Positions 34,239-41,440 are shown, counted from the stretch's first letter. The stretch is 41,440 nt of DNA from a virus (IMGVR_UViG_3300011433_000003:1-41440), one strand, 5' to 3'. Notes: generated by a model from the letters alone, not told the origin. Numbers and translations: made by a program.

Positions 34239-35540
34239 ATGTCGAACTTCCAGCCCGCCGGTACGAAGGATGTCAAGATCAACCTGGCCGGTGCGTACCG
34301 GACCACCTTCACGCACCTGGTGGAGGGCGACGTGATCCGCCTGGACCGCCGGGTGGACGGGCTGGCCAACGGCGCGCTGATCCCGACGCCCACCCACTCC
34401 CCCAAGCGCTCCTTCTGGGCGACGGTGACCAAGGTGGAGCGCGCCGGACGCATCCAGATCACCACGGACCAGGGCCTCATGCCGTGGGAGGCCGCTCACA
34501 CCTCCATCACTCGCAAGGAGCGCAAGTCGGAGACCACCGCCCGCCTGGCCATCGACGCCACCGCCCGACAGGCGGCGCTGCTGGACTCGGAGCGCGAGGT
34601 GGCCGCCGGTCACATCCAGGACATGGCCGCTGAGCACGAGGACGCCGCCCGCACGCCCCGTGAGGCGCTGACCGCTGAGCTGGCCCAGGTCCGCGAGGAT
34701 CGCGCCCGGATCGTGTACGGCGTGACCCGCCCCAACGTCAAGAAGGCGGCGGCGGATGCCCGGATTGCTGAGCTGGAAATCCAGCTGGCGACGCTGGACG
34801 CCACCCCGGAGCGCGCCGCGCTGGGTGAGCCCATGTGCCTGGGTGACTTCGGTGCCTACGGCCAGTGCATCGCGGTCCCCGGGCACTTCGGTCCCTGCAT
34901 GGACGCCTTCGGCCACCGGTTCGACGGACGCAACCGCAACGCCGCGCTGCCCACCCGCACGATCACCCTGGACCAGCTGGGAGACCCGGACGCCATGTTC
35001 CCGGCCACCAGCGCCTACCCGGTGATGACCGGCACCCCGAAGACGGACCCGGCCTACGTCCCGGTGATCCGTCAGGATGAGATCCGGCCCATCAGCGGCC
35101 AGACGGAGATGACGAAGCGGACCCGGGGCGTGCAGGTCTGGCACCCCGACTACACGGGCACGGTCTGGGTGGTCACCGCTGCGGTAGGTGACCAGTGCAA
35201 CCTGGTCGTCCCGGCCACGGGGGACGTGCTGCTGGACGTTCCGGCCTGGCTGCTCCAGCCGGTCACGGTGGAGAACATGGCGGCGTACGTGGCCACCCTG
35301 GGACCGCGTGGCGGCGGCGCGGCGCTCGCGCTGGTGGCGGTCCAGGACCGTCTGCGCAAGGGCACCCAGGCGTCGGACAAGGTGAAGGACGCCCGCCGGG
35401 TGCTGGCGGACAAGCTGGCCGGGGCGAAGGAGCAGCGGCGCGCGATGAACGGCCGGTTCCTGGACCTGGACCGGGTGGCCCAGGCCGCCAACGATGCCCG
35501 CATTGAGGCGCTGGAGGAGGCGCTGTCCCTGCTGGCCTGA
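34239..35540 (+). CDS. Multi-domain hypothetical protein (433 aa)
   Basis: GACGAAGGAG RBS; beta-rich N-domain, coiled coils, C...C...H...C segment. Confidence 0.75.
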   Translation: MSNFQPAGTKDVKINLAGAYRTTFTHLVEGDVIRLDRRVDGLANGALIPTPTHSPKRSFWATVTKVERAGRIQITTDQGLMPWEAAHTSITRKERKSETTARLAIDATARQAALLDSEREVAAGHIQDMAAEHEDAARTPREALTAELAQVREDRARIVYGVTRPNVKKAAADARIAELEIQLATLDATPERAALGEPMCLGDFGAYGQCIAVPGHFGPCMDAFGHRFDGRNRNAALPTRTITLDQLGDPDAMFPATSAYPVMTGTPKTDPAYVPVIRQDEIRPISGQTEMTKRTRGVQVWHPDYTGTVWVVTAAVGDQCNLVVPATGDVLLDVPAWLLQPVTVENMAAYVATLGPRGGGAALALVAVQDRLRKGTQASDKVKDARRVLADKLAGAKEQRRAMNGRFLDLDRVAQAANDARIEALEEALSLLA

Positions 35541-35612
35541 TCAGAACTGGGGTCCGGCAGAAATGTCGGACCCCCTTTGTACTGTGTACACAACCGACGA
35601 AGGAGAGCCCCC

Positions 35613-36701
35613 ATGCCCCCCAGGCCCAGGAAGGCCGCCCCGCCCGCCGTGGCGGATCCGTTCGCCACTCCGGCGTCCGGGAACACCAAGGACGGCGGTC
35701 CGGTCCGTAGGGACCGCTACGGCCGGTACATGGCACCGACCCCGCCCACGGAGGCGGAGCCCAACGGCGGGTTCAAGGACCAGCCGTACACCCGGGCCAC
35801 CACGATGGCCAAGACCATTTCGGACACGTTCGCCTTGGACCAGTGGGGCAACCGCATGGTGGCGAAGGGGCTCACGCTCCGGCCGGATCTCCGGGCGCTG
35901 GTGGCGGCCACGCCGTTCACCGACAGGGACACGCTGAACAAGGCGTGCGAGGACGCCAAGTCCGCCGCCGGGTCCAAGGTCTCCGCCAACCTGGGCACCG
36001 CCCGGCACGCGCTGACGGAGCTGGCCGACCGTGGCCAGCCGCTCCCGCCGCTGGAGCCCGCTGAGCAGGCGGACCTGTCCGCCTACCAGGCGGCGCTGGC
36101 GGAGGCCGGGATCAAGGTGCTGCCCCAGTACATCGAACGGACCGTCATCCGACCGGACTTCGGCGTGGCCGGGACGTATGACCGGATCGTGGAAATGCCG
36201 GACGGGACCCGCCGCATCGCGGACCTGAAGACCGGGGCGGACCTGTCCTACGGTTGGTCGGAGATCGCCATCCAGGAGGCGATCTACCAGGGGGCGGAGT
36301 GGATGTACGACTACGTGACCGGCACCTGGGAGCGGATGCCGGAGACCGACCCGGCCATGGGCCTGGTCATGCATCTGCCCGTGGGCCAGGGCGTGTGCAC
36401 GCTCTACCACGTCAACCTGGCCGCTGGCCGGGCCGGTCTCGCGCTGGCCCACCAGGTCCGGGCGCACCGCAAGCTGAAGAACCTGGCTGTCCCGTTCGGC
36501 ACGGCCACCGTGGCGATCACCGGCCAGGCGGAGGTGGGTACGCCCACCGTCGCCCCGGCCACGCCCCTCCAGCGCGTGCGTGCGGCCACCAACAAGGCCA
36601 CGCTGGCGGCGCTGTGGGAGGAGCTGAACCCCCAGGGTCTCTGGACCGGTGAGCTGATGGCCGCCGCCCAGGACCAGCTCACGAAGTTCGCCACCACGTA
36701 G
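35613..36701 (+). CDS. PD-(D/E)XK exonuclease (RecE/Cas4-like phage nuclease)
   Basis: GTARH, E-R, AGTYDR, IADLKTG and QEAIY motifs. Confidence 0.85.
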   Translation: MPPRPRKAAPPAVADPFATPASGNTKDGGPVRRDRYGRYMAPTPPTEAEPNGGFKDQPYTRATTMAKTISDTFALDQWGNRMVAKGLTLRPDLRALVAATPFTDRDTLNKACEDAKSAAGSKVSANLGTARHALTELADRGQPLPPLEPAEQADLSAYQAALAEAGIKVLPQYIERTVIRPDFGVAGTYDRIVEMPDGTRRIADLKTGADLSYGWSEIAIQEAIYQGAEWMYDYVTGTWERMPETDPAMGLVMHLPVGQGVCTLYHVNLAAGRAGLALAHQVRAHRKLKNLAVPFGTATVAITGQAEVGTPTVAPATPLQRVRAATNKATLAALWEELNPQGLWTGELMAAAQDQLTKFATT

Positions 36702-36710
36702 TGCCTTGAT

Positions 36711-36754
36711 CACGGTTGGCTGTCGTTTGACAGCGGTGGCCAACCGTGTATAGT
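36711..36754 (+). promoter_or_regulatory. Near-consensus promoter embedded in a hairpin
   Basis: TTGACA (36727-32), 16-nt spacer, TATAGT (36749-54); arms cacggttggc / gccaaccgtg. Confidence 0.7.
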
Positions 36755-36759
36755 GGAAA

Positions 36760-37190
36760 TTGCGAACCGGGGCACCGGGGAGCTGGCCCGGGAAGTCATG
36801 AGCCCGGGTAGAGGTGAAGGTGTGAAGTCGCACAGGGAACCGGTGGGCTTAGGCCGATGGCGACCAGGACGGGGAGCGTTACCCCGGCACCTCGCAAGGC
36901 GGAAACAAACCCTGACACGGGATCTGGATGGCTACCGGCGCGCTGCGCCTCACCTGTCCAGGCGGTGAGCAGGTGGAAACTGGCCTTCCAGGGAACGCCA
37001 CCGTTTACTTAGGCGTGACCACCAGCAGAGCTGGGACCAGGTAGAGCGGGCACCTACGGTACCGCGAGGACGGCATGCCTGCCGTGACAGCTGGGAGAGA
37101 CCAGCACCCGCCGGGCGGAGCAGGGAGGCTAGTGGCCGAACCTCCGCCCGGCGGACCACCCAGAAGCGGCGCGCAAGCGCCCACCCCCTA
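36760..37190 (+). ncRNA. Putative large structured non-coding RNA (or structured leader), family unknown
   Basis: No convincing ORF in ~500 bp; about ten stems including a 13-bp perfect stem (37108-20 / 37142-54) and a GCAA tetraloop hairpin; strong promoter upstream. Confidence 0.55.
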
Positions 37191-37206
37191 GCCAGGAGGC
37201 TTAGCA

Positions 37207-37752
37207 ATGACCGAGACCATCACCACGGACCCGTTCGCCGCCGGTACCGAGGACGACCCGTTCAACCGGCCGAACGCCGGAGGCGGGTTCCCCAAGCTGG
37301 AGGACCTGGAGGGCCAGCTCCTGCTGATCAAGCCCCTGGCCATCAAGGCGGTGCCGGACCGGTTCGCCCCGGCGGACTCCCCGCGCCTGAAGGACCGGGC
37401 CACCTGCGACGTGACCGTGTTCCAGGAGGACGGTACCCACCGCACCTTCCGGAGCATGTACATCAGCCAGGCGGGTCTCCTGCCCCAGCTGGCCCAGATC
37501 CTGGAGGACGCCAACCCGAACAAGCCCTTCGTCCTGGGCGTCCTGGGCATGCTGCCCAACAAGGACGCCAAGAGCAAGGGCATCGACACCCGGGAGAAGC
37601 TGAAGGCCGGTCTGGACGCCTGGGTCAAGCGCGGTGGCAAGGGTGACAAGCCGGGCTACTTCTGGGGTCTGGACGCGTTCACCCCGGAGCAGGCCAACCA
37701 GGCCCGGCCGGTCGCGCTGGCGATGCTGAACAAGTCCAACCCGTTCGCCTGA
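37207..37752 (+). CDS. Conserved-looking phage protein, possibly ssDNA-binding
   Basis: AGGAGG RBS; beta-rich core; NPFA C-terminus; neighbour of the exonuclease. Function is inferred only. Confidence 0.5.
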   Translation: MTETITTDPFAAGTEDDPFNRPNAGGGFPKLEDLEGQLLLIKPLAIKAVPDRFAPADSPRLKDRATCDVTVFQEDGTHRTFRSMYISQAGLLPQLAQILEDANPNKPFVLGVLGMLPNKDAKSKGIDTREKLKAGLDAWVKRGGKGDKPGYFWGLDAFTPEQANQARPVALAMLNKSNPFA

Positions 37753-37807
37753 TAGACCCGCTGTCCCGGCCGTTGCTTCTCGTAGCGCGGCCGGGGCGGT
37801 GAACATG

Positions 37808-37892
37808 GAGCCTGTAGCTCAGCGGCAGAGCAGCGACGGTAGACCGGTCCCTGGCCGATCGTGTGTCGTCGGTTCGAATCCGACCAGGTTCC
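37808..37892 (+). tRNA. tRNA-like element 1 (canonical acceptor, D and T arms; enlarged anticodon arm, identity undetermined)
   Basis: GAGCCTG/CAGGTTC acceptor; TAGCTCAGCGGCAGAGC D-arm; GTCGG-TTCGAAT-CCGAC T-arm; no encoded CCA. Confidence 0.65.
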
Positions 37893-37914
37893 CTTGACAG
37901 CCCGGAAAGACGGG

Positions 37915-37997
37915 TGTTCGCCCCGGGCAGACGTGCCCACCAGGCAGAGCCGGAGGGACTCCCGGCGGGTGGTTCGAATCCACCAGGGGCACGAGCA
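37915..37997 (+). ncRNA. tRNA-like element 2 (T-arm intact, other arms non-canonical)
   Basis: GGTGG-TTCGAAT-CCACC; closing stem TGTTCG-CCCC / GGGG-CA-CGAGCA; two internal hairpins. Confidence 0.5.
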
Positions 37998-38139
37998 GTC
38001 CGCCCACCGGCACGACTGGTCTGAACAACTCATCCGGTGGCCCGCCCAGGGTTAGGGGTGCACGATCAGCCCGGTCGACAAGGCCGGTAAGGGGCGTCGG
38101 GCCTGAAGGTCGAATTACCCGGCGTCCACCGGGCTGCAA

Positions 38140-38234
38140 TGGGAAGTTGGCGGGATGACGGCAGTCCCGCGCCGCTCTTTTGCGGTGGTGCCCGGCCAGG
38201 CACCCGGCCGGAGGTTCGACTCCTCCCTTCCCAG
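38140..38234 (+). ncRNA. tRNA-like element 3 (6-bp D stem, long variable arm, 6-nt anticodon loop)
   Basis: TGGGAAG/CTTCCCA acceptor; GCGGGA/TCCCGC; GCCGC-TCTTTT-GCGGT; GGTGCC/GGCACC; GGAGG-TTCGACT-CCTCC. Confidence 0.6.
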
Positions 38235-38238
38235 CGAT

Positions 38239-38267
38239 GCCCGGCTACGGCCGGGCTTCACCCTTTC
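38239..38267 (+). terminator. Hairpin closing the RNA cluster (possible terminator)
   Basis: gcccggc-TACG-gccgggc followed by ttcacccttt. Confidence 0.5.
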
Positions 38268-38278
38268 AAGGAGGCGGT

Positions 38279-38497
38279 ATGACGTTCTGGGACCTGGTGG
38301 ACAAGTACCCGGCAGGGTTCGCCCTGCTCTACTTCTTCACGCTGCTGTTCGTGGTCTTCGTGGTGGCCGGTGCGTTTATCGAGAAGACCAAGCGCACCAT
38401 CGCGGAGAGCGCGGCGGTTACCGCCGTGTCGGCGTCGGAGAGCGCGGCGGAGATCGCGAAGGCCCAGGCTTTCGCAGCTACGCACCAGCACGGCTGA
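38279..38497 (+). CDS. Small single-pass membrane protein
   Basis: AAGGAGG RBS; hydrophobic GFALLYFFTLLFVVFVVAGAFI. Confidence 0.75.
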   Translation: MTFWDLVDKYPAGFALLYFFTLLFVVFVVAGAFIEKTKRTIAESAAVTAVSASESAAEIAKAQAFAATHQHG

Positions 38498-38547
38498 ACC
38501 GGTCCGGCGGGCAACCGCCGGGCCTTACCCCCTCCTTGGAGGAGACC

Positions 38548-38679
38548 ATGAACTGGAACTTCCGGATCGGCCCGCTGCGCTTCACCAAGCGGGCATCGTT
38601 GATCGGTATCGTGGTGGCCGCCTGGCTGGTCATCATCGTCTGTTGCTGCTTCCCATTCGTGGTTGGCAGCGGGATCTGA
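38548..38679 (+). CDS. Small single-pass membrane protein (43 aa, CCC motif)
   Basis: GGAGGAG RBS; LIGIVVAAWLVIIVCCCFPFVV. Confidence 0.7.
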   Translation: MNWNFRIGPLRFTKRASLIGIVVAAWLVIIVCCCFPFVVGSGI

Positions 38680-38690
38680 AGGAGGCGCAC

Positions 38691-40004
38691 ATGCGTATCG
38701 GAATCACTGGCGGCGGCGGGTTCATCGGGTCGCACACCGCCCGGATGGCGCTGGACATGGGCCACCAGGTGGTGGTCCTGGACCGCACCGGGGACCTGAA
38801 GGGACCCATCGGAGCGATGCTGGAGGACGGGACCGCCGCGCTGTTCCTGGGCGACGTGCGCGACCAGTCCACCATGATGGAGCTGGCCGCCCACGTGGAC
38901 GGGATCATCCACCTGGCGGCCTGCCTGGGCACTCAGGAGACTATCCAGAACCCCCTCCCGGCGGCGGAGACGAACATCTTCGGCGGCCTGAACTTCCTCC
39001 AGGCGTGCGCCCAGTACAGCGTCCCGGGCGTGTACATCGGGGTGGGCAACCACTTCATGGACAACAGCTACTCGATCACCAAGACCACGGTGGAGCGGTT
39101 CGTCTCCATGTACAACCGCGAGCGCGGCACCCGGGTCAACATCGTCCGGGCGGTCAACGCCTACGGTCCCGGCCAGTCCGTGGCCGCCCCGTACGGCTCC
39201 GCCAAGGTTCGCAAGATCACGCCCAGCTTCGTGTGCCGGGCGCTGCTGGGTCACGTCGTGGAGATCTACGGGGACGGTCGCCAGATCAGCGACATGGTCC
39301 ACGTCACCGACGTGGCGAAGGCGCTGGTCCTGGCGCTGGAGGCGGCGGCGGACGGCCGGTACCTGGGTACCTCCATGGTCCCGGTGCCGGTGGAGGTGGG
39401 GCCGAAGGCGGAGGACTCCCTGTCCGTCCTCCAGGTCGCCCGGCTGGTGGTGGAGGACGCCACCGCCTACCAGGCCAGCAAGCTGGACACGGTGGGCATG
39501 TCCCAGATCAGGCACCTCCCCATGCGGCCGGGCGAGATCGCCGGAGCGCGGGTCTCCGCCGACACGCGGACGCTGCGCTCTATCGGGTTCAACGTGGCCG
39601 ACCTGGTGCCGGTCCGCGTGGGCATCCAGCAGACCGTCCGCTGGTTCGCTGAGCACTGGCTCCCGGAGTACCAGGTGGAGCAGGAGCGCCGCACCCAGGC
39701 CACCCGGTCCCGGATCGGCCACCTGCTGGACTACGTGAGCGACAACATCGCCCGGGAGGAGGAACTGAACCGGTTCCCTGCCCAGCACGTGGACCTGGCG
39801 GACTTCCCGGTCCCGGCGGAGGTGCTGGGCGAGACCCCGCCCATCCTCCGGCAGATGCAGCGGGACATGGACCTCCACCAGGAGGCCGCCGCCGTGGTCC
39901 GGGACATCATGCGCCCGGCGGCATCGGCTCCGGAGATCGGTCCTGACGCCTCCGTCCTGCTCCCGGACTTCACCGCGACCCAGGCCCACGGGGACATCCA
40001 CTGA
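38691..40004 (+). CDS. NAD-dependent nucleotide-sugar epimerase/dehydratase (extended SDR)
   Basis: ITGGGGFIG, IIHLAA, YSITK (YxxxK), NAYGPGQ, GDGRQISDMVHVTD; AAGGAGG RBS. Confidence 0.92.
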   Translation: MRIGITGGGGFIGSHTARMALDMGHQVVVLDRTGDLKGPIGAMLEDGTAALFLGDVRDQSTMMELAAHVDGIIHLAACLGTQETIQNPLPAAETNIFGGLNFLQACAQYSVPGVYIGVGNHFMDNSYSITKTTVERFVSMYNRERGTRVNIVRAVNAYGPGQSVAAPYGSAKVRKITPSFVCRALLGHVVEIYGDGRQISDMVHVTDVAKALVLALEAAADGRYLGTSMVPVPVEVGPKAEDSLSVLQVARLVVEDATAYQASKLDTVGMSQIRHLPMRPGEIAGARVSADTRTLRSIGFNVADLVPVRVGIQQTVRWFAEHWLPEYQVEQERRTQATRSRIGHLLDYVSDNIAREEELNRFPAQHVDLADFPVPAEVLGETPPILRQMQRDMDLHQEAAAVVRDIMRPAASAPEIGPDASVLLPDFTATQAHGDIH

Positions 40005-41053
40005 TGAAGATCTTCTTCTGGAGCGCGGGCAGCGATGGCAGTAGCTTCTACCGCCAGGCCCTGCCCGCGCTCGGACTCGGGTGGCGCGGCCACCGGGTGG
40101 GTACGGGTCAGCAACTGTCCCTGCCCGCCGTACGCGACTGTGACGCCGTGATCGGTGCACGGATAGCCAGTGCCCCCGCAACGCTTGCCTGGCAGGCTCT
40201 CAGCGCCCAGGGCGTGCCCCTGGTGCTCGACCTGGACGACGACTACTTCAACCTGGACCCGTCCAACCGCCGGGCGTACGAATTCTGGGGCAAGGACGGG
40301 CTGCGCCAGCGGCTGGCGGACAACATGGACGCCGCCAGCCTGGTCACCGTCGCCAGCCAGGGCCTGGCCGCCGCCATGGCGGAGCGGACCAGTACGCCCA
40401 TCGCGGTGGTGCCCAACCTCCTGCCCGCCCAGTACCTGGCCGCCCCCCGGGCGTACGGGGACAAGGTGACGGTGGGCTGGGCGGGGTCCAGCTCCACGCT
40501 GCACGAACTCCCGATCATCGCCCGGTCCCTGAACCGCCTGGCGCGGCTGGCCCGGCCGGTGCAGGTCAAGCTGGTGGGCTGCACGCTGGAGGAGGCGGGA
40601 GCCATGGGGGTGGACGTGTCCACCGGCCTGGTGTCGGCCACCGGCTGGATCCCGGACGTGCCCAGCTACCTGAAGGAGTGCATGGCTTTCGACATCTGGC
40701 TCGCGCCGTACCGCCCCACCCCGTTCAACCAGGCCAAGTTCCCCACCAAGGCGCTGGAGTCCAGCTTCCTGGGCATCCCCCTGTTGGCCAGCCCCACCCG
40801 GCCGTACGCCGACTGGGTCACCGACCGTGGGCCGAACCCGTGCGGGGTCACCCTGGTCCGCCATGACCACGACTGGGGGCACTACCTGAAGGCGCTCACC
40901 GACCCCGACGACGGTCCGGTCCGGCGGCGCGCGGCCGGTGAGGCGGCCACCGCCGCCGCCAGCTCTTCCATCCTCCAGTCCGGCGCGGCCTGGTGGGAGT
41001 CCGCTATCCAGACTGCCCGCATCAACACCAAGAGGGAGGCACCCCATGCTTGA
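40004..41053 (+). CDS. GT-B fold glycosyltransferase (GT4-like)
   Basis: FYRQALP, DLDDD, VGWAGS, DIWLAP...FNQAKFPTKALE...LGIP. Confidence 0.85.
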   Translation: MKIFFWSAGSDGSSFYRQALPALGLGWRGHRVGTGQQLSLPAVRDCDAVIGARIASAPATLAWQALSAQGVPLVLDLDDDYFNLDPSNRRAYEFWGKDGLRQRLADNMDAASLVTVASQGLAAAMAERTSTPIAVVPNLLPAQYLAAPRAYGDKVTVGWAGSSSTLHELPIIARSLNRLARLARPVQVKLVGCTLEEAGAMGVDVSTGLVSATGWIPDVPSYLKECMAFDIWLAPYRPTPFNQAKFPTKALESSFLGIPLLASPTRPYADWVTDRGPNPCGVTLVRHDHDWGHYLKALTDPDDGPVRRRAAGEAATAAASSSILQSGAAWWESAIQTARINTKREAPHA

Positions 41054-41440
41054 CGGACTCCCCGTCATCGCCTGGACCCCGTACGGACGCCAGGAAACGG
41101 TCAGCGTGCTGGCCCGCTACATGGAGCGCGACCACGCCGCCGGGCTGCTGGATGAGTGGTGGCTCTGCCTGAACACGGACCCCTCCGGCCAGGAGGGAGA
41201 CCTCCGTTACGCCTACACGCTGGCCCGCCAGCACAGCTGGATCAAGATCAAGGACCGTCCGGCGGGCTTCCCCCGCAAGCACCCCAAGCAGCGCAACACG
41301 GGCTACTTCTACACCTACATGACCGATCCGGACACCACGTACGTGCGCTTTGACGATGACATCGTCTACGTGCACCCCGACGCCGTGGCGCGCCTGGCGC
41401 GCTCCGCCCGGGAGCGCGGCGCGGGCGGCGGCGTGGCCAG
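41046..41440 (+). CDS. N-terminal part of the GT-A glycosyltransferase (continues at 124-622 via circularity)
   Basis: GGAGG RBS; MLDGLPVIAWTPYGR...; ATG 41046 is in frame with ATG 41319, which equals position 2. Confidence 0.75.
   Translation, partial: MLDGLPVIAWTPYGRQETVSVLARYMERDHAAGLLDEWWLCLNTDPSGQEGDLRYAYTLARQHSWIKIKDRPAGFPRKHPKQRNTGYFYTYMTDPDTTYVRFDDDIVYVHPDAVARLARSARERGAGGGVA
41318..41440. repeat. Terminal direct repeat, copy 2
   Basis: Identical to 1-123. Confidence 0.95.

What the first reader, a model, noticed from the sequence alone, without database searches (positions are those of the whole stretch)
37760..38267. Array of three tRNA mimics with intact T-arms but non-decoding anticodon arms, interleaved with other hairpins
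Seen: three T-arms (GGTTCGAATCC twice, GGTTCGACTCC once), each in a cloverleaf-like fold with a pairing closing stem. None has a normal 5-bp stem with 7-nt anticodon loop, and none encodes CCA after the discriminator. Between elements 2 and 3 lie further stems (ccaccgg/ccggtgg at about 38004-38040; cagcccggt/accgggctg enclosing gccggtaa/ttacccggc at about 38067-38136). Inference: stem pairing is kept while decoding parts differ, which fits selection for tRNA shape better than simple decay. Possible roles are decoys for host anticodon nucleases or tRNA-sensing defences, or RNase P/Z punctuation marks that release the intervening RNAs. This is my best candidate for an undescribed RNA system.
Basis: partly seen in the sequence, partly recalled or inferred. 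Interest (0 to 1): 0.85.

Follow-up and report, generated by a model that had tools for sequence, protein, structure and literature searches.

The report
Non-decoding tRNA look-alikes punctuate phage transcript
This soil-and-sediment type phage has no ordinary tRNA gene but keeps three tRNA-shaped RNAs with remodelled codon-reading arms right behind a probable DNA-binding-protein gene, a layout shared by relatives including cultured Streptomyces phages, and they likely serve as cut marks for the host's tRNA-trimming enzymes that would release several small folded RNAs.

Summary
Real and selected, not decay. Three T-arms lie at 37868-38226 (at most 1 in each of 1000 shuffles). Three related phages have three-element arrays at the same place. 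Element 1 keeps 64 of 64 stem cells paired across four phages, with four compensatory pairs, while its anticodon arm is a different sealed hairpin in each. Two corrections: missing CCA is normal for such phages (2 of 22 ordinary tRNAs encode it), and element 3 has a weak Lys(UUU) register, 10 kcal/mol disfavoured. New: a pan-phage UGACA-GARAGA hairpin, which precedes real tRNAs by 3-8 nt, sits 4 nt before element 2. The layout gene-hairpin-tRNA shape recurs unannotated in three of four cultured Woodruffviruses examined; TP1604 lacks it, so it is accessory. Best reading (0.5, inferred): host RNase P and 3'-end enzymes cut these shapes, splitting one promoter-driven transcript into mRNA and small stable RNAs. 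Anticodon-nuclease decoy is unlikely; decoy for tRNA-body binders stays open. No expression data. Closest known: T4 RNAC/RNAD, irregular tRNA polycistrons, YrlA. Earlier scan notes report similar elements and the same hairpin on other DNA.

The parts
36727..36754 (+). sigma-70-type promoter (TTGACA, 16 nt, TATAGT); the only one found in 35400-38800, conserved in L002 and L003; likely drives leader, gene and array as one transcript (inferred)
   Evidence: (1 match, 0 in 100 shuffles)
36755..37206 (+). 450-nt non-coding leader; first 170 nt 79% identical to L002; 700 and 960 nt long in relatives; holds a copy of the UGACA-GARAGA hairpin at about 37085-37105
   Evidence: fold energy alone not significant, z -0.99
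37207..37752 (+). phrog_870 gene, probable single-stranded-DNA-binding protein (weak support: best structural match PRD1 SSB P12, Z 5.4, rmsd 4.0, 100 aligned; many OB folds below; Foldseek gave nothing at E<=0.001)
37759..37801 (+). very stable hairpin without a U tract, between the stop codon and E1, ending 6 nt before E1; counterpart in 4 of 4 family members (z -3.3 to -5.3)
37808..37892 (+). E1: tRNA-shaped RNA with 7-bp acceptor, normal D arm and T arm, anticodon arm replaced by an about 32-nt sealed irregular hairpin; C73, C74, no CCA
37895..37915 (+). UGACA plus 5-bp hairpin with GARAGA loop: widespread phage motif that precedes tRNA genes by 3-8 nt; here 4 nt before E2
37920..37991 (+). 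E2: reduced tRNA shape (5-bp closing stem, extra hairpin in place of D-stem, single-stranded D-loop remnant with GG, 5-bp arm with 8-nt loop, T arm); orthologues in L002 and L005
37996..38040 (+). predicted H-type pseudoknot (37996-38000 with 38014-38018; 38004-38010 with 38034-38040); low confidence, thresholds chosen after seeing it
   Evidence: 4 of 1000 shuffles
38067..38136 (+). long irregular hairpin ending 3 nt before E3; no counterpart in sequence in the relatives
   Evidence: (z -2.39, 6 of 200 shuffles)
38140..38234 (+). E3: 7/5 cloverleaf, 6-7 bp D-stem, 5-bp arm with 6-nt loop (minor register: Lys UUU 7-nt loop), variable arm, G73, C74, no CCA; not alignable with the third elements of relatives
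38239..38256 (+). closing 7-bp hairpin before the ribosome-binding site of the next gene (38279-38497); similar hairpin in L003 and L005
   Evidence: (z -5.48)

Best explanation
The three elements are tRNA-shaped RNAs kept by selection for their acceptor, D-loop and T-arm body while the codon-reading arm has been remodelled, and they likely act as cut marks and stable carriers that host RNase P and tRNA 3'-end enzymes would excise from one long phage transcript. Shown: the shapes, their covariation, their position behind the phrog_870 gene, the strong hairpin before E1 and the pan-phage tRNA-leader hairpin before E2. Inferred: (1) one transcript runs from the promoter at 36727 through leader, gene and array; (2) RNase P cuts at 37808, 37920 (less certain, short closing stem) and 38140, leaving the probable ssb mRNA and the spacer RNAs each with a hairpin and a 3-6 nt tail at its 3' end; (3) RNase Z or exonucleases and CCA-adding enzyme finish the 3' ends, as for ordinary CCA-less actinobacterial tRNAs; (4) the products are a stabilised mRNA and several small folded RNAs whose own jobs are not identified. 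The system is accessory, since a close cultured phage lacks the tRNA shape.
For: Covariation: E1 in four phages, 64 of 64 cells paired, 4 of 16 pairs changed on both sides, 0 of 500 column shuffles as high for percent paired (the control does not keep relatedness), while fourfold-degenerate sites of the adjacent gene are only 51-65% identical, 42% expected at saturation. E2 in three phages: 5 of 21 predicted pairs with a double change. All 12 family elements keep a T arm but acceptor identity positions and the discriminator vary (A, C, G), so shape and not synthetase identity is conserved. 9 of 12 have 6 or 7 of 7 acceptor pairs in register; a 7-bp acceptor is named as the main RNase P determinant, and a tRNA-like domain is cut by RNase P and gains CA in M. 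smegmatis (PMC4201824, passages). The UGACA-GARAGA hairpin keeps both variable pairs in 117 of 117 distinct loci and has a tRNA 3-8 nt downstream in 22 of 117, with 49 same-strand and 0 opposite-strand tRNAs; RNase P protein binds leader positions -8 to -3 (PMC11143913, passages); here the gap to E2 is 4 nt. Hairpin before E1 in 4 of 4. Same layout, hairpin then 5 nt then long-armed tRNA shape, behind the phrog_870 gene of cultured phages Xkcd426 and phiSAJS1, and a two-T-arm version in YDN12. Non-decoding shapes between exonuclease and ssb-like gene in 3 of 9 distant relatives and in L035. Only one promoter-like site in 35400-38800.
Against: No transcript, end-mapping or cleavage data. TP1604 keeps two hairpins behind the same gene but has no tRNA shape, so the hairpin can stand alone as a terminator or 3' end and does not prove a cut; 6 of 9 distant relatives and 5 of 5 other cultured actinophages examined also lack the shapes. 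No unusually stable hairpin in the 50 nt before E2 or E3 in any of the four arrays (z -1.3 to +1.7). E2 has only a 5-6 bp closing stem with a bulge, a poor RNase P substrate on paper, and it is not formed in the fold of the whole gap. Pure punctuation does not explain why E1 keeps a long sealed arm or why three shapes and changing spacer modules are needed. Covariation rests on four and three sequences.
Confidence: 0.5

Rival explanations
1. The excised RNAs are abundant trans-acting decoys or sponges for host proteins that bind the tRNA body (elbow or 3' end), such as tRNA-end-modifying toxins or tRNA-sensing defences; processing is only the way they are made.
For: They sit in a unit with a near-consensus promoter; patchy presence and fast turnover are typical of accessory counter-defence genes; the body is conserved and the arms are sealed, which would keep them out of the ribosome. 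35 of 39 distinct long-armed hits in viral contigs also lack a canonical arm (the pattern selected for long arms, so this shows existence only).
Against: No target identified. For anticodon nucleases specifically the fit is poor: recognition is sequence-dependent in the anticodon loop (PMC10264068) and 11 of 12 elements have no such loop. In L035, L205, L206, L207 the shapes lie in a 5' leader, which suits a cis role.
Confidence: 0.22
2. The shapes stay uncut in the transcript and work in cis as structural modules (exonuclease barriers, read-through or translation control for the downstream membrane-protein, epimerase and glycosyltransferase genes).
For: The array lies between a strong hairpin and the next ribosome-binding site; E2 is a poor fit to RNase P rules; leaders of relatives contain the shapes.
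Against: 7-bp acceptors, intact elbows and C74 are what processing enzymes read; a tRNA-leader hairpin stands at its usual distance before E2.
Confidence: 0.1
3. Decaying tRNA pseudogenes or remnants of tRNA attachment sites.
For: Single elements fold only moderately better than shuffles; third elements are unalike between phages; one close cultured phage has lost the element.
Against: No unpaired cell in 64 for E1; no relative holds a canonical tRNA at these positions (0 of 9 elements in L002, L003, L005; ARAGORN on the two whole records gives only two unassigned calls); no tyrosine integrase or serine recombinase in 3 of 3 records (records may be incomplete).
Confidence: 0.06
4. The remodelled arms or spacer RNAs are antisense guides against phage transcripts, as C4 and CI RNAs are, with the tRNA shape only for maturation.
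For: C4 RNA is an RNase P substrate (PMC11143913); the arms vary like guides.
Against: Longest exact complement elsewhere in the own genome is 13-14 nt in 3 of 3 phages, within the 11-20 nt range of 30 shuffles each; matches of 12 nt or more are more numerous than in shuffles (19 vs 6.6, 15 vs 9.8, 22 vs 8.5) but scattered over stems and both orientations. No Rfam C4 hit. Host targets could not be tested.
Confidence: 0.07
5. E3 alone is a working or mischarged tRNA: a Ser-type body (variable arm, G73) with a Lys UUU loop, like allo-tRNAs.
For: A canonical-format register exists; long V arm and G73 are SerRS determinants (PMC5389517).
Against: Register is 10.3 kcal/mol worse, 0.2% populated; G37 instead of A37 (A37 rule recalled); only 11 AAA codons among 10678 counted; relatives have 5-, 4- and 10-nt loops at the third position.
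Confidence: 0.05

Closest known systems
Phage T4 RNAC and RNAD (species 1 and 2 RNAs)
   Same: Small phage RNAs from a tRNA-type transcription unit with unknown role (PMC3014915 and PMC12685909, passages).
   Different: T4 has them among working tRNAs; this family has no canonical tRNA in window, G001 or G002 and places the shapes next to an ssb-like gene. I did not compare sequences with RNAC/RNAD directly.
Polycistrons of irregular tRNAs and allo-tRNAs (Mukai et al., PMC5389517, parts 2-3 of 5 read)
   Same: Tandem irregular cloverleaves from soil bacteria or their elements, some charged but not used in translation.
   Different: Allo-tRNAs have 8/4 or 9/3 branches and anticodon loops and lie near toxin-antitoxin genes; E1 and E3 are 7/5, 11 of 12 elements have no canonical arm, and the context is a lytic-looking actinophage replication module.
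Bacterial Y RNAs YrlA/Yrn1 (PMC4201824, passages)
   Same: tRNA-like D and T arms without decoding; cut by RNase P and CCA-tailed in an actinobacterium.
   Different: No Ro60/TROVE gene in 3 of 3 records, no YrlA hit in the window, no GNCGAAN(0-1)G motif in the window array.
tRNA punctuation (animal mitochondria, plant t-elements, MALAT1/mascRNA) and the engineered tRNA scaffold
   Same: A tRNA shape recruits RNase P/Z to define ends of neighbouring RNA, or carries cargo in place of the anticodon loop. These comparisons are recalled, not read here.
   Different: Those are organellar, eukaryotic or engineered; here a phage would do it with host enzymes, and cutting is not shown.
Canonical tRNA (Rfam RF00005)
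   Same: E1 passes the gathering score; D arm nearly identical to actinophage tRNA-Asn.
   Different: No 17-nt anticodon arm in E1 or E2; disfavoured in E3.

Membership tests
canonical decoding tRNA (RF00005) | 7-bp acceptor stacked on 5-bp T arm with TTCRA loop | tested here: met
   E1 and E3 7 of 7 pairs; E2 only 5
canonical decoding tRNA (RF00005) | 5-bp anticodon stem with 7-nt loop, U33, purine 37 | tested here: not met
   Absent in E1, E2 and in 9 of 9 elements of relatives; present in E3 only as a 0.2% register
canonical decoding tRNA (RF00005) | Rfam gathering score | tested here: inconclusive
   E1 45.2 bits over 29; E2 and E3 only 19.8 and 16.7 bits to tRNA-Sec, cut-off 47
canonical decoding tRNA (RF00005) | aminoacylation and use on the ribosome | not testable with these tools
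   needs experiment
allo-tRNA | 8/4 or 9/3 acceptor branch | tested here: not met
   E1 and E3 are 7/5; definition from PMC5389517
allo-tRNA | long D-stem and long variable arm, G73 or U73 | tested here: inconclusive
   E3 has a 6-7 bp D-stem, V arm and G73, but a 7-9 nt D-loop, not a tetraloop; E1 and E2 do not
Y RNA (YrlA, RF02553) | Ro60/Rsr gene adjacent | tested here: not met
   PF05731 0 of 3 records, control rang in 2 of 14 genomes; a host-encoded Rsr is not excluded
Y RNA (YrlA, RF02553) | covariance-model match and GNCGAAN(0-1)G motif | tested here: not met
   No hit at E<=10 in the window; 15.4 bits vs 69 in L005; motif absent from 3 of 4 arrays, one unplaced match in L002
tmRNA | tRNA-like domain with tag reading frame | tested here: not met
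   No ARAGORN or Rfam call
theta (HDV-like) ribozyme at tRNA 3' end | nested double pseudoknot with P3/L3 and catalytic C in J4/2 starting at the tRNA 3' end | tested here: not met
   The pseudoknot after E2 has only 3 nt between its second 5' strand and first 3' strand, no room for P3/L3 (read by hand; strand order of HDV recalled; the published descriptor was not run)
C4 antisense RNA / c4-a1b1 | Rfam C4 match or complementary a1/b1 targets | tested here: not met
   No hit; no long complement in own genome; c4-a1b1 rows seen in the supplement of PMC2864571 do not resemble the local hairpin (first rows only)
tRNA punctuation element (RNase P/Z substrate) | intact elbow and 12-bp acceptor/T helix with short single-stranded leader | tested here: met
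   Met in sequence for E1 and E3 (gaps 6 and 3 nt); only partly for E2
tRNA punctuation element (RNase P/Z substrate) | cleavage at the stem ends in vivo | not testable with these tools
   no RNA data available
T4 RNAC/RNAD | sequence or structure homology | not tested
   T4 sequences were not fetched; blastn of the region against 50,697 phage records gave no T4-like hit

The most novel reading that the evidence does not exclude
These actinophages run a natural small-RNA expression cassette: a strong host-type promoter, tRNA shapes that recruit the host's tRNA-maturation enzymes, and an exchangeable set of folded cargo RNAs (sealed arms, pseudoknots, long hairpins) released at high copy to neutralise host defences or regulators, a natural counterpart of engineered tRNA scaffolds and tRNA-spaced guide arrays, signposted by an uncatalogued pan-phage leader hairpin.
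Probability: 0.2. Interest if true: 0.85.

Novelty: new variant of a known kind. Interest (0 to 1): 0.6.

Why it matters
Phage tRNA-like RNAs without a job have been known since T4 RNAC/RNAD, and annotation tools discard or mislabel them (ARAGORN calls E1 Ser and misses the Xkcd426 element altogether). Here they occur without any working tRNA, show compensatory change, and are tied to one gene across distant actinophages. The practical gain is a test system: cultured Streptomyces phages Xkcd426, phiSAJS1 and YDN12 carry the layout, unannotated, and TP1604 on the same host as Xkcd426 lacks it. That makes the old question of what non-decoding phage tRNA shapes do directly testable. The UGACA-GARAGA hairpin, estimated in about 2600 stored viral stretches and absent from Rfam hits, may be a general signal of phage RNA processing.

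Tried and rejected
Rfam on the whole window gave only three chance hits and missed E1; the narrower scan found it. blastn of 36700-38300 against cultured phages: 3 short matches only. Single-protein and exact-DNA scans of viral contigs found nothing; genome contigs held no relative of the gene and two unrelated long-armed hits, so no prophage or host was identified. Promoter-pattern scan gave only the two known relatives and three unrelated loci; acceptor-pattern scan gave no new family member. A covariance model of E2 found only its three training sequences above 35 bits in 48 sources. Sequencing runs: no RNA holder listed; this says nothing on expression. My recalled idea that the UGACA hairpin is c4-a1b1 was rejected. 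G3-U70 (Ala) and G-1/C73 (His-like) features of E1 are not shared by relatives, so I do not read them as identity elements. A 2dG-II riboswitch hit in L002 (23.9 bits, cut-off 60) and a CRISPR-DR9 hit in L005 (17.5 bits, cut-off 45) were taken as chance. Foldseek gave no match at E<=0.001 for the phrog_870 model. Paper searches returned no description of this arrangement or of the hairpin motif; the library lacks most subscription journals, and supplements of bioRxiv preprints are closed, so motif catalogues in such files could hold either. Logan-only relatives (proteins P0002-P0020) could not be read at DNA level, which limits covariation to four arrays.

Full report
Setting. The window is a 41,440-base virus record with direct terminal repeats, 66-72% G+C, with terminase, portal, capsid, tape measure, DNA polymerase, primase, helicase and exonuclease genes. 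Its capsid protein is about 50% identical to that of Streptomyces phage Zuko and exonuclease relatives are actinophages, so an actinobacterial host is inferred, not shown. No tyrosine integrase or serine recombinase was found in it or two relatives. The finding lies in a 526-nt gap between a phrog_870 gene (37207-37752) and a small membrane-protein gene (38279-38497), followed by an epimerase and a glycosyltransferase. The phrog_870 protein is probably a single-stranded-DNA-binding protein: a confident model (pLDDT 84) matches PRD1 SSB best (Z 5.4, rmsd 4.0, 100 residues) with OB folds below, which is weak support.

Observation. The three T-arms are real and far beyond chance: 3 in the gap against at most 1 in 1000 shuffles, in this array and in each of three related arrays. 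E1 (37808-37892) has a 7-bp acceptor, normal D and T arms and a sealed arm of about 32 nt; it scores 45.2 bits as tRNA. E2 (37920-37991) has a 5-bp closing stem, an extra hairpin in place of the D-stem, and a single-stranded remnant of the D-loop. E3 (38140-38234) is a 7/5 cloverleaf with a long D-stem and variable arm. E3 can be drawn with a 7-nt Lys(UUU) loop, but that register costs 10.3 kcal/mol and has 0.2% pair probability, and the phage has 11 AAA codons among 10,678 counted in 32 reading frames. And lack of CCA is ordinary: of 206 distinct ARAGORN calls in the loci I held, I dropped 35 that my scan patterns had forced, 18 with non-canonical arms and 11 without a recognisable T-loop; of the 22 left in loci of 60% G+C or more (7 loci, two near-duplicates), 2 encode CCA and 22 have C74; in lower-G+C loci 67 of 120 encode CCA. 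M. tuberculosis lacks CCA in 32 of 45 tRNA genes (PMC10673834, passages). The family elements follow the same pattern: none of 12 has CCA, and all 10 with a standard-length acceptor strand have C74.

Relatives. Twenty homologues of the gene product were found; an alignment of them retrieved two viral contigs of about 40 kb (L002, L003) and one short metagenome contig (L005) besides the window's own record. All three carry three T-arm elements in the same gap. E1 is orthologous in 4 of 4: 64 of 64 stem cells are paired, 4 of 16 pairs changed on both sides, and slid controls reach at most 50%. The tool warns that its shuffle ignores relatedness, and four sequences are few; but fourfold sites of the neighbouring gene are only 51-65% identical against 42% at saturation, and the 50-nt E1 body is 39-48 of 50 identical with every stem change tolerated. 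The arm differs in each phage yet is always a paired hairpin. E2 is orthologous in 3 of 4, with 5 of 21 pairs doubly changed. Third elements and spacers are unalike: tetraloop, 5-nt and 10-nt loops, and a predicted pseudoknotted module shared by L002, L003 and L005 but not the window. No relative has a canonical anticodon arm (0 of 9). This is turnover under selection for shape, not decay of ordinary tRNAs.

Context signals. One near-consensus promoter (36727-36754) is the only one in 35400-38800 and is conserved; 450 nt of non-coding leader separate it from the gene. In 4 of 4 phages a very stable hairpin without a U tract lies between the stop codon and E1 and ends 1-6 nt before it (z -3.3 to -5.3); no such signal was seen in the 50 nt before E2 or E3. 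Between E1 and E2 sits a 21-nt motif, UGACA plus a hairpin with a GARAGA loop. A scan estimated about 2600 viral stretches with it and returned 120 loci; in 117 distinct ones both variable pairs are kept 117 of 117 times although the pattern allowed mismatches, 32 have a tRNA within 300 nt, 22 have one starting 3-8 nt downstream, and all 49 tRNAs are on the same strand. Rfam has no hit on it in 20 of those loci. Here it ends 4 nt before E2, which supports 37920 as a tRNA-like 5' end. RNase P protein binds leader positions -8 to -3 (PMC11143913, passages), which fits the spacing; this link is my inference. An earlier scan note (e1-5874229) reports the same hairpin elsewhere.

Wider spread. A pattern for a normal D arm and T-loop set too far apart found 43 viral loci; 35 of 39 distinct ones lack a canonical arm, which shows existence only. 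Among distant exonuclease relatives, 3 of 9 have non-decoding shapes between a promoter and an ssb-like gene, as does L035. Among nine cultured actinophage regions examined, three of four Woodruffviruses have an unannotated tRNA shape behind the phrog_870 gene: Xkcd426 (104 nt, 15-bp hairpin 5 nt before it, 48.2 bits as tRNA, homology of the gene 94% probability), phiSAJS1 (124 nt, compensatory acceptor changes) and YDN12 (two T-arms). TP1604 keeps the hairpins but has no tRNA shape, and EmiRose, Puppers, TPA2, Hammy and Phaedrus have none in the gaps. The element is therefore accessory, and the hairpin can exist without it, which weakens the hairpin as evidence for cutting.

Mechanism. What is conserved is what RNase P, RNase Z and CCA-adding enzyme read: acceptor/T helix, elbow, C74. 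What synthetases, ribosomes and anticodon nucleases read is not conserved. In M. smegmatis a tRNA-like domain with a 7-bp acceptor is cut by RNase P and gains CA (PMC4201824, passages). I therefore favour punctuation and carrier function (0.5): the host enzymes would cut the long transcript into a hairpin-capped mRNA and several stable small RNAs. All cutting steps are inferred. The main rival is that the released RNAs are decoys for proteins that bind the tRNA body (0.22); the two are compatible, and the long sealed arms and changing spacers are not explained by punctuation alone. Uncut cis modules (0.1), antisense guides (0.07; longest own-genome complement 13-14 nt, as in shuffles), decay (0.06) and a decoding E3 (0.05) rank lower.

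Known kin. [quoted passage not shown] Mukai et al. describe polycistrons of irregular tRNAs, some charged but not translated (PMC5389517, parts 2-3 of 5). Y RNA, tmRNA, allo-tRNA, C4 and theta ribozyme membership each failed a defining test. Mitochondrial punctuation, mascRNA and the engineered tRNA scaffold are recalled analogies. Ten paper searches showed no account of this arrangement; unseen subscription papers and preprint supplements may bear on that. Earlier scan notes describe similar elements on other DNA; they are unchecked and not counted as support.

Verdict. A real, selected, accessory cluster of non-decoding tRNA-shaped RNAs: a new variant of a known but unexplained kind, now testable in cultured phages. 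Interest 0.6.

Noticed in passing
window 37895-37915 and about 37085-37105; L079-L198: Uncatalogued pan-phage motif UGACA plus GARAGA-loop hairpin, estimated in about 2600 viral stretches of 27-68% G+C, with strict covariation and a tRNA 3-8 nt downstream in 22 of 117 distinct loci.
   Followed up: partly
window 36755-37206; L002 3340-3994; L003 3090-4000: Long modular non-coding leader (450, about 650 and about 910 nt after the promoter) with a conserved 5' domain and repeated copies of the GARAGA hairpin; no Rfam hit; may be a structured RNA in its own right.
   Followed up: partly
L002 4943-5030, L003 4884-4970, L005 1485-1574: Shared module before the third element: a hairpin with a 13-nt loop whose loop can pair with an upstream 5-mer that covaries between the phages (read by hand); absent from the window.
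   Followed up: partly
L212 4926-5029 (Xkcd426), L217 815-938 (phiSAJS1), L219 about 1010-1128 (YDN12): Unannotated long-armed tRNA-shaped elements behind the phrog_870 gene of cultured Streptomyces phages; TP1604 (L218) lacks one.
   Followed up: yes
L217 286-715: The phrog_870 homologue of phiSAJS1 appears to change frame in the deposited record and is annotated as a reverse-strand gene plus a fragment; possibly a sequencing error.
   Followed up: no
L019 (G004), about 1000 nt upstream of its match: A 41.7-kb phage with an exonuclease relative has about 1.3 kb of non-coding structured sequence with five T-arms and one GARAGA hairpin.
   Followed up: no
L007, L027, L031, L036, L045, L049: Several viral contigs share a nearly invariant remodelled anticodon arm of about 31 nt in a tRNA body, a separate conserved family.
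   Followed up: no
L087 129-243 and 330-444: Two 115-nt tRNA-shaped elements with about 49-nt inserts on either side of the GARAGA hairpin.
   Followed up: no
window 38691-41053 and 40974-41440 continuing at 2-622: Epimerase, glycosyltransferase and a further gene that runs across the ends of the record, a possible glycosylation cluster downstream of the array.
   Followed up: no
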